Positions 40,235 through 59,472 of a stretch of 64,000 bases of DNA are shown piece by piece; position 1 is the stretch's first letter; each line of letters begins with the position of its first letter. Source of the DNA: Eledone cirrhosa (taxonomy: Eukaryota); assembly GCA_964016885.1 (NCBI GenBank), contig OZ024743.1:341930001-341994000 (forward strand), read 5' to 3'. Below the pieces are notes generated by a model that searched no databases, was not told the origin of the DNA, and worked only from the letters and a program-made list of their open reading frames with translations. Both the position numbers and the translations under genes were made by a program.

Positions 40235-40700
40235 AATGTATGTATAGTATATTTGACAATATAATGTATGTCTAATTACAAATATTTCGGAGACCATTCG
40301 CTCTGAATTTTAAAGTAGTGACTCTGTCACTTACTTATTCTCGGGAAAAACAAAGGGGAGTAATTGACAGTCCGGGTTATCGCTCTTTAGCGGTTATCAA
40401 GACTATTCCCTTCTTTTCTGCCGAGAGTTCTAGAAGATGGATTCTTATAGAATTCCAGTAATGTTTAAGAGCTGATTAAACAGGGCGGTTGCAGGTCCAG
40501 CAAAAATATGGGTATTAGTTCTGAAATAGCGATGTATATATGTAAGTGACATATTCTTGATAACCACTTACAAGCGAGAAACAGAGCTGTCGAATACTCC
40601 CCTTTGTTTTTGCCGTGAATAAATAAGTGACATAATCACTACTTTAGAATTCATAGCGAATGGTCTTCAAAGGGTTTTTAAATGTATTGAATTTTAAGTA
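40235..40700. mobile_element. Non-coding fold-back HHR element related to 11318-12145
   Basis: 40290-40410 is inverted at 40550-40670. Shares GTATGTATAGTATATTTG, AGTGAC..GTCACT and CTGAAATAGCGATGTATA with the 11.3-kb element. Confidence 0.7.
40552..40596 (+). ncRNA. Type I HHR with U3-A8 core
   Basis: TATTC-TTGATAA-CCACTTACAAGCGA-GAAA-CAGAGCTG-TC-GAATA. The decayed inverted copy (~40362-40405) keeps TTGATAA and helix II CGCT/AGCG. Confidence 0.68.
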
Positions 40701-40764
40701 TACTAAATTAGCCATTTTGCAATATATTTATCATTGTTTTCCTTGGTTACGTGTAAAAGAAATA

Positions 40765-41050
40765 GATGCAGTGATGCCGTGAGTGGTATCACCCACTCCA
40801 AGCAGTTCCACAGGGTGTTGGAAGACAACGGCTATCCAGCACCATTCATCAACGGAATAGGGTACCCAGGCACAGGAGATAGAGAAACGGGACTGAAAAT
40901 TGCTTCTTCAAGATACCGCACCTAGGCGAAAAAACCACTAGCGCTATCCCCAGATTCATACGTAAGGAGGGTCTCGACATCCAGTTACCAAAATCGGAAC
41001 CCTCACTACGGAAAGTAGCATCGAATATGTCATCCATGTCATAAGCAGCT
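40765..41050 (+). mobile_element. Penelope-like RT thumb / C-terminal fragment
   Basis: QFHRVLEDNGYPAPFIN, then in another frame FFKIPHLGEKTTSAIPRFIRKEGLDIQL...SLRK. Confidence 0.5.
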
Positions 41051-41079
41051 GTCCAAAATGTCATCACGGTACTATCTAC

Positions 41080-41835
41080 CTATGAGGCATGATGTAGTGG
41101 CCAAAACACTGTAAATGCAATCCGTAGAAAGGATAGCTCCGACAATAAACACATTAAAAGCTACAGCAATGTGGAAGACATACATATACATATGAAATAG
41201 TACATATGAAATAGTACACGTTCCAGTCAAAACCCCCAAATAAAATGCAGGCGTAACAGACCAGATATAATGATATGGGACAGGGAAAAGAAGGCATGCA
41301 CAGTAGTGGACGTTAGCTGCCCAGCAGATGCCAATATAATATTAAAGTTTAGCGAAAAGGAGAATATCTGGCGCAGAACTAATGAGAAATATATAGATAC
41401 ACCACCCCGACTATACGTTTAGATTCATGCCTGTGATTATTGGGGCACTGGGATATGTTAGTAACCGCTGCAGTACAAATCTTGAGAAGCTAGGCTTCAC
41501 AGAAACAGAAAGAACACGACTAGTTAGGAAATTACAAGTACAATCCATAATGGAACAACAATAATATGAAAAACATTCCAAAATCCTGCATTTAAATACC
41601 GCATATACACTTGTACGATACAAAGCATATGCACAGGCACACATATGACTCAAAACATCCACATCCACACAAACAATAACATCCATACCTGCACACACAT
41701 CCATGCATGCCGACATGCGTACATATCTACCAAGTTGATGTTGTGTAAGTTCCAATGAGAGCGTCTTGTATCTATGTTAGAATCAACCTCTCTCTCTATT
41801 GGTAAACATTTGTGAAATTATAAAACCAGAAGAAC
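41080..41835 (+). mobile_element. Third RLE-type (R4/Dong-like) LINE 3' fragment
   Basis: Manual translation: CRRNRPDIMIWDREKKACTVVDVSCPADANI...KENI...FRFMPVIIGALG. Confidence 0.75.
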
Positions 41836-56175: not shown

Positions 56176-57348
56176 TATATATATATATATATATATACCT
56201 ATATACTGTTCGGAAATTATTCTCGGTTTTAGTCGGTAATTGTGAAACGACTTAACTCAGTCCAGAATAAATTTTATTGGTTCCGTTAATCTATAGCTCC
56301 GTGATTCTGGAGATGAGGTACTCTTCGAAGGCATTTTATGCAGCGGTTGTTTAATCATTTAAGAATTTGAAATGCTTGAAAATTGGTGAAATATCCGATA
56401 ATCGCGATGGATAAAAGAGAGTTTAGTAACCCAAACTGTTCAACTCCTGGAACGTTGGTTGTGCGATGTGTGATCGGACGTTGATGTGCAAAAGGTTTGG
56501 CGCTTTTATATTGATTAAAACTGGATGTATACGCTGCAATTCCTGATGAATTTCAACGATTGGGTAACAATATTTGTCTGCCGTGAATGTTCTCCATGAT
56601 TCAGAGAGCTGAAGCGGATTAGTCCGGCTGCGGACTATTAAACATTCATCATACATTTCTTTTGGCACAAAGTTAGATTTAGGAAGATTTTAGAAGCAAC
56701 TAATGTATTGAACGCCATCGGCTGTTGTATAGGATCCACGTTCTATGAGATGTCACAATACGATAAACAAAGGGTTTTTCTGGGTTTCGTTCAAGCGTTT
56801 TTGATTTTTTTCAGTTCAGTTCAAATGCTCAGATATTGTTTCAATGCTTACATCTAGATCTCCTGCAAGTTATCGAACAACCTTTAATTCATCTTCGCAA
56901 CCTTCCCTATTTTCAAGAGCGTTGAAAACAACGTTGAGATGTGCATTGATTAACACATTCTTGGACCCCAAACTTCAGTGATGTTATTAATCATTTGCAC
57001 TACAATGCAGCAGAGGTAAAACTCATAGAAATAAATCTGGCGAAAATCCTCTATTGAATACTAAAAATCATAATTCTGAGAATTGATTAAGATATAATTT
57101 ATATTAAAGCGGGATTGCAAAAAAAGAAAAAAGCATAATATATACTTCATAATTTCACACACATTGAAATTAAAAAGTGCTGAAACAAATAAAAATAAAC
57201 CTGCTTGCATGTCTGAACAACCTAATACACACACACACACACTATATATATATATATATATATATATATATATATATATATATATATATATATTAATAAT
57301 TCTGGCGATTTTTTTTCCTTTGTTTGGAAGAAGAGATTGACTTTGTTT

Positions 57349-57397
57349 GTTTCAGAAGATCCCGTTAAGGGTGAAAGCAGCGATTCTTTGCTTAAAC
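57349..57397 (+). ncRNA. HHR-like motif (U4A) in a ~120-bp insert between two (TA)n tracts
   Basis: GTTT-CAGAAGA-TCCC-GTTAA-GGGT-GAAA-GCA..TGC-TT-AAAC. Confidence 0.6.
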
Positions 57398-57499
57398 TTT
57401 AATCTGTTATTTTAATATATATATATATATATATATATATATATATATATATATATATATATATATATATATATATATATATATATATATATAAATATA

Positions 57500-59472
57500 T
57501 AACGAAGGAAATGTGGTAAGGAACCAGGTGGACCATAACACACCAAAGTACTCAATACTTGGGGTAGTAGAGTGGGTAATAGGAACCAGTAAGACCCCGA
57601 CAGCTGAGCTCAAGCCGTTTCGACTGCTAATTCTGGACTAAATGAAAATTTATCCTGGTATTTAAATAGCCGATCTTCTCAAGGGGTAATTCCATATATG
57701 GTCAAAGTGATTGTCAAAAATCAGTAGTAATTCTGTGGTTGCAAATTAGTAGGGGAGATGGTGGCTAAACCTGCCAGTAGGAGAAATAGGGGAGGGGTGG
57801 AGTAGACCCAATCAAGCGTTGGTAGTGCCAGCTACAGCTGGGCATGAGGTCAAAGAAGATACAGGGGAGGGGGAGGGGGAGGAAGTCGGAACGGTAGGTA
57901 GAACAATGGGGGGTAGAAATATATAGGAAAGAAAAAATACTGAGAGTGAAGAAAAGCAAATAAGTGTAAAGAAAAAAGTAAAGTAAATTAAATTCTACGA
58001 CCTAGGTCTCAGGCTATTGTTAGGCAACAACATCACCTATGATCTCACTTGGAGATTACTGTCCAGAGCCAATTCTTACACGGGAGGACGCCGTCCGTGC
58101 AATTTATGCTCGGAGGAAACTTTACAAATGCTGTTTTCGACGGACCAACTCCTAAACAAGAAAGTTGAACTGGTCACTGCATGTAAACATAGATTGCGTA
58201 GGACTTACCTCGCCCTCAAACCCCATAATGACCCGGGGGGGGGGGGGGGTAGACTAGGGCTATAACACCCCACTTGCCGATTTTGCAATGGGTAACCCCT
58301 GCTTGCCAAGGAAGACGTAAGATCTTCTTTGTATTCTTTTATCGCTTCCTTTATTTCCTTCCCCCCTCTCTCCTTAGTCCTTCTACCCCAGCTCTTCTCC
58401 TTTGTCGGCGTCTTTTCTCGCCCACCCTAGGCTGCCCTTTGGCCCCATGTAGCCTTAGTACCCCCACCACCCCCTCCCCTAGTCTATGATAGATTTTGCG
58501 GACTCCGCCCTTTATAGCAGTTGGCTTAGGCCCCGGATACTTGCCCCCTTTTTCCCACCGCTCCCACTATTCTCTGTGCCCTCTATATTTCTTAGTGGCA
58601 CTTATGCCTTATTTTTTCGTTTCAGTATTTCTTGCTTCGCTTTTCTTCTGGGCGGGGTGGATTCTGAATTTATTTATCCGTATTCTACCTTTATTTCGTA
58701 CGAACTTTCATGTAGCTTGTTTTAGATCTTTTAGAGTTAGCATTAGTATATATTTTTCTCGGGACTCGGAATTATTATCTCGTACAAGTTTACTTTGCTG
58801 CACTGGGTCGTTGCTGGCCCGTGATGGAAACCTTTATTGTTTATTTCGTGGTAGTCTCTTTAGTATTTTGGCCCCTTTTGTTGACCCGTCACCGTATCAT
58901 TTACGTACTTATACCTCTTAAAAGGGTCCTTGCCTATACCGTCCCACCTAGTTCTTTTACTTATTTCGTTATTTCTTTATTTCTTTCTTTCTTTACTTCT
59001 TTCTTTCTTTATTTATTTTATTCTAGCCTAACAATAGCCTGAGACCTAGGTCGTAGAATTTAATTTACTTTATTTTTTTCTTTACACTTATTTGCTTTTC
59101 TTCACTCTCAGTATTTTTTCTTTCCTATATATTTCTACCCCCCATTGTTCTACCTACCGTTCCGACTTCCTCCCCCTCCCCCTCCCCTGTATCTTCTTTG
59201 ACCTCATGCCCAGCTGTAGCTGGCACTACCAACGCTTGATTGGGTCTACTCCACCCCTCCCCTCTTTCTCCTACTGGCAGGTTTAGCCACCATCTCCCCT
59301 ACTAATTTGCAACCACAGAATTACTACTGATTTTTGACAATCACTTTGACCATATATGGAATTACCCCTTGAGAAGATCGGCTATTTAAATACCAGGATA
59401 AATGTTCATTTAGTCCAGAATTAGCCGTCGAAACGGCTTGAGCTCAGCTGTCGGGGTCTTACTGGTTCCTAT
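57500..59472 (+). mobile_element. 5'-truncated Neptune-type PLE (PLE3) with inverted 5' pLTR
   Basis: 58025-58250 encodes ITYDLTWRLLSRANSYTGGRRPCNLCSEE...LLNKKVELVTACKH. 57580-58025 is the reverse complement of 59025-59472. (TA)n flanks. Confidence 0.88.
59364..59457 (+). ncRNA. Type I HHR with U3-A8 core (copy at 57594-57687, minus)
   Basis: ACCCC-TTGAGAA-GATCGGCTA...TAGCCGTC-GAAA-CGGCT-TGAGCTC-AGCTG-TC-GGGGT. Confidence 0.82.

What the first reader, a model, noticed from the sequence alone, without database searches (positions are those of the whole stretch)
40552..59457. Three different HHR types with the compensatory U3-A8 catalytic core (UUGANAA)
Seen: the core is TTGATAA at 40557 and 51673, and TTGAGAA at 59369 (and in its inverted copy). 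Each sits within intact helices I and III with a GUC triplet. Known: C3-G8 forms a tertiary Watson-Crick pair, and the double change U3-A8 is an uncommon natural variant that retains activity. The 40.5-kb element shares flanking sequence with the 11.3-12.1 kb element, whose consensus core is CTGAGGA, so the covariation appears inside one lineage. Inference: the ribozymes were under selection for catalysis, and standard CUGANGA searches would miss these families.
Basis: partly seen in the sequence, partly recalled or inferred. Interest (0 to 1): 0.78.

Follow-up and report, generated by a model that had tools for sequence, protein, structure and literature searches.

The report
Jumping-gene ribozymes swap a core pair
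Three high-copy jumping-gene families carry a predicted self-cutting RNA with a known paired swap in its core, and one lineage spread widely through a stage with that pair mismatched, which would be expected to stop cutting, before restoring it, so cutting likely helps these elements but is not essential.

Summary
The U3-A8 cores are real and fixed in their families: 14 of 15, 99 of the first 100 of 5,973, and all of the first 100 of 2,198 genomic motif matches. All three are type I hammerheads, of an intact Hydra-clade Penelope-like element (59.4 kb), a 592-nt retrozyme-like repeat (51.7 kb) and a non-coding relative (40.5 kb; this copy is truncated and decayed). U3-A8 is already published for phage and Schistosoma PLE hammerheads, and this scan has noted it before in this genome and others. 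New here: U3-A8 arose at least twice among autonomous families (p-AU 0.0005). The 59.4-kb lineage also contains subfamilies with an unpaired C3·A8 core (1,525 motif matches; 0 of the first 100 have G8). They lie between two U3-A8 groups on both the ORF and the pLTR tree, while the rest of the core stayed unchanged. A natural CUGANAA hammerhead was inactive in vitro (PMC8490949). No cleavage was tested and no useful RNA data were found.

The parts
40552..40596 (+). Family A type I hammerhead, U3-A8 core 40557-40563, GAAA 40578-40581, C17 40591; 5'-truncated, helix II decayed
40297..40425 (-). Inverted partner copy of family A; U3-A8 core starts at 40400; GAAA box decayed
51596..51826 (+). Truncated 231-nt copy of family B (592-nt tandem non-coding retrozyme-like unit) between (TA)n tracts
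51668..51757 (+). Family B hammerhead, U3-A8 core 51673-51679, 59-nt helix II region, palindromic helix III, C17 51752
58025..59472 (+). Right arm of a 5'-truncated family C Hydra-clade PLE: end of the endonuclease ORF (58017-58241), 3' UTR and pLTR ending in (TA)n 20 nt past the predicted cut site
59364..59457 (+). Family C hammerhead, U3-A8 core 59369-59375, 54-nt helix II region, C17 59452
57496..58025 (-). Inverted left arm of the family C insertion, with a second hammerhead (core from 57682, C17 57599), running 103 nt past the predicted cut site
11360..12070 (.). Family D inverted pair, C3-G8 homologue of family A; decayed cores at 11481 (minus) and 11936 (plus)
19740..22430 (-). Family G Hydra-type PLE with C3-G8 hammerhead (core from 22416) and broken RT-EN ORF; sister of U3-A8 family F

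Best explanation
These are family-fixed U3-A8 type I hammerhead motifs at the ends of Hydra-type Penelope-like retroelements and their non-coding dependants, and they likely cut tandem transcripts after GUC in a way that helps but is not required for transposition. Shown: family C is a 3,531-bp tandem unit with an intact 717-aa RT plus GIY-YIG-type ORF that inserts into (TA)n; family B is a 592-nt non-coding tandem unit; A and D are homologous non-coding families with U3-A8 and C3-G8; A8 cores are not one clade on the RT tree; the C lineage has C3·A8 subfamilies between two U3-A8 groups while the rest of the core is constant. Inferred: cleavage, probably as dimers through the palindromic helix III and perhaps helped by the element's protein, gives unit-length or circular RNA. 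Because selection on it is moderate, a lineage can keep amplifying with the 3-8 pair broken by one transition and later regain a pair by a second transition. That two-step route would explain why U3-A8 arises repeatedly.
For: Family counts with positions 3, 7 and 8 free: A 14 of 15 U3-A8, and 0 matches with C3; B 99 of the first 100 of 5,973; C all of the first 100 of 2,198; D 92 of the first 100 of 165 C3-G8. Unbiased sample: 45 C3-G8, 12 U3-A8 and 2 other of 59 (Fisher p 1e-12). Intact ORF and tandem unit; Hydra motifs (against PMC8557442 section 11). RT tree of 16 rows: U3-A8 family F is sister to C3-G8 family G (100/99), the C lineage groups with C3-G8 families J and K (100/99), and monophyly of the A8 families is rejected, p-AU 0.0005. 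C3·A8 subfamilies: 1,525 matches, 0 of the first 100 with G8; 27 of 100 listed rows. A single U3/C3 split is rejected on 20 ORF rows, p-AU 9e-38, with the same ladder on 91 pLTR rows with the core masked. Among six subfamily majorities, core 0 of 13 and core plus helices 2 of 45 sites vary, against 61 of 151 elsewhere (p 1e-6); in the C3 phase alone 1 of 45 against 25 of 176 (p 0.034). Literature: U3-A8 is active and natural (PMC3088659, passages); a natural CUGANAA hammerhead was inactive (PMC8490949, passages); hammerhead mutants of an anole PLE still insert in vitro and its ribozyme is protein-assisted (PMC11167929, section 3 part 2). Insert ends lie 20 and 103 nt past the cut site.
Against: No cleavage or expression evidence: the only RNA run found covered 134 nt outside the hammerhead with one 200-nt contig and had nothing on family B. 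Conservation of core and helices could reflect protein binding rather than catalysis. The root of the C lineage is unresolved: a distant DNA outgroup left the base open, a protein outgroup attached near the young clade (96/92) without rejecting the old root (p-AU 0.075), and the age gradient is not strictly monotonic (0.090, 0.040, 0.072, 0.028, 0.026, 0.009). Recombination between subfamilies could mimic reversion. The zero C3·A8 count is an undercount: that descriptor missed the C-lineage copies in sample loci L214 (C3·A8), L216 and L223. Hammerhead-to-ORF links for families M and N rest on one or two loci. Pfam recognised none of the 4 ORFs tested.
Confidence: 0.66

Rival explanations
1. 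The C3·A8 core is active through a shifted register: C3 pairs with the G at position 7 (a core lacking N7, with an extra A before helix II), or the element's protein rescues it. Catalysis would then have been under continuous selection.
For: G7 is the majority in all three C3-phase subfamilies. 26 of 28 C3 rows but only 3 of 72 U3 rows have G7, whereas N7 is A, C, U or G in U3 subfamilies. The core stayed constant in the C3 phase. An extra base between positions 9 and 10.1 is common in PLE hammerheads (PMC4209133).
Against: C3 with G7 is a single origin, so the linkage may be founder hitchhiking. 7 of the first 100 C3 copies have A7 or U7. I found no report of a natural N7-less core. The later return to U3 suggests a cost.
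Confidence: 0.17
2. C3·A8 transcripts were cut in trans by U3-A8 relatives in mixed dimers, because helices I and III are nearly identical across subfamilies.
For: Helix I is invariant and helix III almost so across six subfamilies. Helix III is palindromic, and PLE hammerheads are reported to work as dimers (PMC4209133; PMC6765202, passages). U3-A8 subfamilies of overlapping age exist.
Against: It does not explain why the enzyme-side core and helix II stayed constant in the C3 phase (low power). Co-expression is not shown.
Confidence: 0.08
3. The fold is kept as a protein-binding or priming structure and cleavage is irrelevant; the 3-8 covariation reflects structure only.
For: C3·A8 subfamilies amplified, and family J has a fixed U4-to-A change (35 of 47 motif hits, overlapping loci included). 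Hammerhead mutants insert normally in vitro (PMC11167929). Insert ends lie beyond the cut site.
Against: The catalytic residues G5, G12, A13, A14, the A15.1-U16.1 pair and H17 are constant. Paired 3-8 states dominate (57 of 59), and the pair was regained under any rooting of the tree.
Confidence: 0.08
4. The window copies are chance double mutants of C3-G8 families.
For: One such double mutant exists in family D (1 of 165), about what the single-mutant rates predict.
Against: The family majorities of A, B and C are U3-A8, and no variant reached 1% at positions 3 or 8 of B in two DNA contig sets.
Confidence: 0.01

Closest known systems
U3-A8 minimal hammerheads of Schistosoma mansoni Cercyon PLEs (Cervera and de la Pena 2014, PMC4209133; parts 1-2 of 4 read)
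   Same: Same core covariation in PLE terminal repeats, high copy number, palindromic helix III, missed by the standard descriptor.
   Different: Here in Hydra-type elements, with helix II regions of 54-59 nt in B and C, at least two independent origins, and an amplified C3·A8 stage not mentioned in the parts read.
Hydra clade of C-terminal EN+ PLEs (Craig et al. 2021, PMC8557442; passages, section 11 and supplement part 2 of 59 read)
   Same: RW[RK], DKT, CxCx5C linker, CxxC and CxH around the endonuclease, (TA)n targets, hammerhead at the 3' end, mismatch at 10.1-11.1 as in family A.
   Different: All 26 Hydra rows of their File S2 have C3-G8 cores (found with a CUGANGA-type descriptor); the unit here is 3.5 kb against mostly under 3 kb.
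Metazoan non-LTR retrozymes (Cervera and de la Pena 2020, PMC7229834, passages; bioRxiv 10.64898/2026.07.22.740005, part 1 of 5)
   Same: Family B is a non-coding tandem repeat with one type I hammerhead per unit.
   Different: 592-nt unit against about 300 nt typical; U3-A8 core; circular RNA not shown here.
Natural hammerhead core variants (Perreault et al. 2011, PMC3088659, passages) and the inactive CUGANAA hammerhead of S. mansoni W-elements (PMC8490949, passages)
   Same: U3-A8 described as a natural compensatory change; CUGANAA occurs naturally.
   Different: There CUGANAA was a single inactive candidate; here it is the majority core of whole amplified subfamilies.

Membership tests
Type I hammerhead ribozyme | Core N3-U4-G5-A6-N7-N8-A9, G12-A13-A14, A15.1-U16.1, H17 with a Watson-Crick 3-8 pair | tested here: met
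   (U3-A8) for families A, B and C; not met in the C3·A8 subfamilies
Type I hammerhead ribozyme | Three helices around the core, helix I open | tested here: met
   for B and C; family A has a C·A mismatch at 10.1-11.1 and the 40557 copy is decayed
Type I hammerhead ribozyme | Helix I to loop II tertiary contact | tested here: inconclusive
   a possible 5-6 bp pseudoknot in B is seen by eye and kept in a 78%-identical relative; none identified in C
Type I hammerhead ribozyme | Self-cleavage after H17 | not testable with these tools
   no raw RNA reads available
Hydra-clade PLE (family C) | Single ORF with RT and C-terminal GIY-YIG-type endonuclease | tested here: met
   717-aa ORF with YRDD and NVIY motifs; no Pfam hit
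Hydra-clade PLE (family C) | RWK-like motif, DKT, CxCx5C linker, CxxC and CxH near the end, no CCHH | tested here: met
   RLRWR 35, DKT 117, CxCx5C 572, CxxC 670, CxH 698, with only one CxxC and one CxH found (definitions)
Hydra-clade PLE (family C) | Partial tandems, inverted truncated arm, (TA)n target | tested here: met
   (16 of 37 ends run into TATATATA, 21 continue into the unit)
Hydra-clade PLE (family C) | Placement with reference Hydra RTs in a tree | not tested
   reference proteins were not in my data; assignment rests on motifs
Non-LTR retrozyme (family B) | Non-coding tandem repeat with a type I hammerhead in each unit | tested here: met
   spacing 591-593 nt in 15 of 17 intervals; longest open frame 84 aa
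Non-LTR retrozyme (family B) | Expressed as monomeric linear and circular RNA | not testable with these tools
   no RNA cover

The most novel reading that the evidence does not exclude
An autonomous Penelope-like lineage crossed the hammerhead C3-G8/U3-A8 fitness valley in plain view: it amplified to more than a thousand copies with an unpaired C3·A8 core while keeping every other catalytic base, then restored U3-A8. Either cleavage is dispensable for long periods, or C3-U-G-A-G-A is a new register-shifted or protein-rescued active core.
Probability: 0.55. Interest if true: 0.72.

Novelty: new variant of a known kind. Interest (0 to 1): 0.55.

Why it matters
What hammerheads do for Penelope-like elements is open: they are conserved, yet mutants of one element still insert in vitro (PMC11167929). 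This lineage supplies a natural series of closely related ribozymes (U3-A8, C3·A8, U3-A8 again) from subfamilies that each amplified, so the link between cleavage rate and transposition success can be tested directly. It is also a rare genomic record of the uncompensated intermediate of a compensatory RNA substitution. In practice, about a fifth of this genome's hammerhead motifs are invisible to CUGANGA searches. The U3-A8 core by itself is not new.

Tried and rejected
Rfam search of the window: no hammerhead family among 86 matches at E up to 1. Pfam: no informative hit for 4 ORFs. RNA evidence: 7 runs found, 1 on record as RNA, contigs only; uninformative on expression or cleavage. A U3-A8 subfamily inside family D: rejected, 1 of 165 with about 0.2 expected from the single-mutant rates. 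A pseudoknot suggested by GTAAGTG/CACTTAC in the 40557 copy: rejected as a junction artefact, absent from the family. Rooting the C lineage with family J DNA or J/K proteins: unresolved or conflicting. A closer outgroup family was seen only as truncated ends, so its core is unknown. Whether A and the related U3-A8 family E share one switch was not resolved (no tree built). Rows dropped: 12 of 32 ORF fragments under 500 nt; L339 for lack of cover; 14 of 91 chimeric or long-branch pLTR rows before the majority analysis. Papers not held, so not read: Lunse 2017 (PMC5785218), Przybilski and Hammann 2007 (PMC1986816), Hammann 2012 (PMC3334697); Lunse 2017 may already list C3·A8 variants. Searches for C3-A8, CUGAGAA or CUGANAA and earlier-findings look-ups gave no report of an amplified C3·A8 family. 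The supplements of the bioRxiv preprint were not consulted.
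Full report
Observation. All are type I. The window lies in a 3.0-Gb animal genome; earlier AI notes call it octopus-like (unchecked). The 40557 copy is truncated at an inversion junction and decayed, and an inverted decayed partner sits at 40400 on the minus strand. Rfam found no hammerhead in the window, including the canonical ones.

Families. Family C (59.4 kb): the window holds a 5'-truncated insertion with an inverted arm (57496-59472). Elsewhere the element is a 3,531-bp tandem unit with an intact 717-aa ORF carrying the motifs that Craig et al. 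give for the Hydra clade. Its ends run into (TA)n, 20 and 103 nt past the predicted cut site. Family B (51.7 kb): a 592-nt non-coding tandem unit of retrozyme type. Family A (40.5 kb): a non-coding element with a long extended helix I and a C·A mismatch at 10.1-11.1; many published Hydra hammerheads have a U·U mismatch there. A is homologous on both flanks to family D at 11-12 kb.

With positions 3, 7 and 8 free: A 14 of 15 U3-A8 and 1 U3-C8, with no C3 match; B 5,973 matches, 99 of the first 100 U3-A8, and no variant at 1% in two DNA contig sets; C 2,198 matches, the first 100 all U3-A8. With 3 and 8 free, D gave 165 matches, the first 100 being 92 C3-G8, 4 C3-A8, 2 U3-G8 and 2 C3-C8; one U3-A8 copy in all fits chance. 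Matches count both arms of an insertion, exact motifs undercount old copies, and the listed rows come from the first chromosomes. In 120 evenly spaced 10-kb samples a descriptor free at 3 and 8 gave 45 C3-G8, 12 U3-A8 and 2 others, against 4 hits in two shuffles. It missed the C-lineage copies in L214, L216 and L223, so its zero for C3·A8 is an undercount.

Repeated origin. On an RT tree of 16 rows, U3-A8 family F is sister to the window's own C3-G8 family G (100/99, 68% identity), and their hammerheads resemble each other. The C lineage groups with C3-G8 families J and K (100/99). Holding all A8 rows together is rejected (p-AU 0.0005). With the A/D pair this makes the switch recurrent, though tree counts cannot by themselves tell gain from loss.

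The unexpected part. Laying DNA contigs on the 59.4-kb ribozyme showed C at position 3 in about a quarter of the depth with no change at position 8. A genome search confirmed 1,525 matches with C3; the first 100 were 93 CUGAGAA, 6 CUGAAAA, 1 CUGAUAA and none with G8. A second search of related subfamilies (1,467 matches) listed 68 U3-A8, 27 C3·A8, 1 C3-G8, 2 U3-G8 and 2 U3-C8 among the first 100. A tree of 20 ORF fragments (20 of 32; shorter ones dropped) and a tree of 91 pLTRs with the core masked both give a ladder: old U3-A8, then a C3·A8 grade, then young U3-A8 including the window copy. A single U3/C3 split is rejected (p-AU 9e-38). Divergence from the subfamily majority falls from 0.090 to 0.009 along the ladder, not strictly in order. 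The root is unsettled, but because C3 lies between two U3 groups, any rooting needs at least one C3·A8 to U3-A8 change, unless recombination supplied it. Through all this the other 13 core bases and helices I and II did not change (2 of 45 sites against 61 of 151; C3 phase alone 1 of 45 against 25 of 176, p 0.034). The youngest subfamily also gained a pair at 10.2-11.2 (read from the sequences). The C3·A8 copies sampled have broken ORFs (longest open stretch 550 aa), so that stage appears to be past.

Mechanism. From established knowledge, C3-G8 is a tertiary Watson-Crick pair of the active fold (PMC3884650, passages) and U3-A8 is an active natural covariant (PMC3088659, passages). A natural CUGANAA hammerhead did not cleave (PMC8490949, passages). 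In an anole PLE, single 3 or 8 mutants abolish cleavage but not insertion in vitro, and cleavage needs the protein (PMC11167929). I infer that these ribozymes cut tandem transcripts, likely as dimers, that this gives a moderate advantage, and that lineages can drift through a mismatched state and regain a pair by a second transition (confidence 0.66). The main rival is that C3 pairs with G7 in a shifted register: G7 is fixed throughout the C3 phase, but this is one origin. Trans cleavage by relatives and a purely structural role are less likely.

Comparison and novelty. U3-A8 in PLE hammerheads was reported in 2014, and earlier notes of this scan describe U3-A8 retrozymes and a Hydra-type U3-A8 pLTR in this genome. 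All 26 published Hydra rows are C3-G8. I found no report of an amplified C3·A8 family, but could not read Lunse 2017. Verdict: the finding as written is real and mostly known; the mismatch stage and the repeated origins make it a new variant worth testing. Interest 0.55.

Noticed in passing
window 57353 (+); L108, L131, L141, L178, L217: Autonomous Hydra-type family J has a fixed A at position 4 (CAGAAGA) in 35 of 47 motif hits, overlapping loci included: a second amplified non-canonical core.
   Followed up: partly
window 10561 and 4988 (minus): Hydra-type element H has an 8-nt core CTGAAAGA (one extra A) and a long helix II in both window copies; the family majority was not checked.
   Followed up: no
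L178, L180: A further minimal U3-A8 family (TTGAAAA core, GUA triplet), 3 hits in the random sample.
   Followed up: no
L093, L209, L235: Family E, a U3-A8 relative of A and D with a U-A pair closing helix I.
   Followed up: partly
L116/L119 (G000:C5:33254100-33257599): Inverted pair of family D in which one arm is C3-G8 and the other U3-A8; consistent with a chance double change.
   Followed up: yes
L278, L342: Possible intermediates (C3-U7-A8; U3-G7-A8 with older helix II bases) near the base of the young clade, hinting at two separate returns to U3 or at recombination.
   Followed up: partly
window 51663-51667 and 51689-51693: GAGGT upstream of helix I can pair with ACCTC in loop II of family B and is kept in the 78%-identical L201 copy: a candidate pseudoknot.
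   Followed up: no
window 17339 (-), 22416 (-), 24977 (+), 25503 (-), 44261 (+): Further C3-G8 hammerhead motifs of other families in the window.
   Followed up: partly
window 1414-2957 and 28213-39276: Several non-LTR retrotransposon RT fragments, judged by eye from the translations.
   Followed up: no
L214 (311-nt repeat), L217 (467-nt repeat): C3-G8 retrozyme-like tandem arrays.
   Followed up: no
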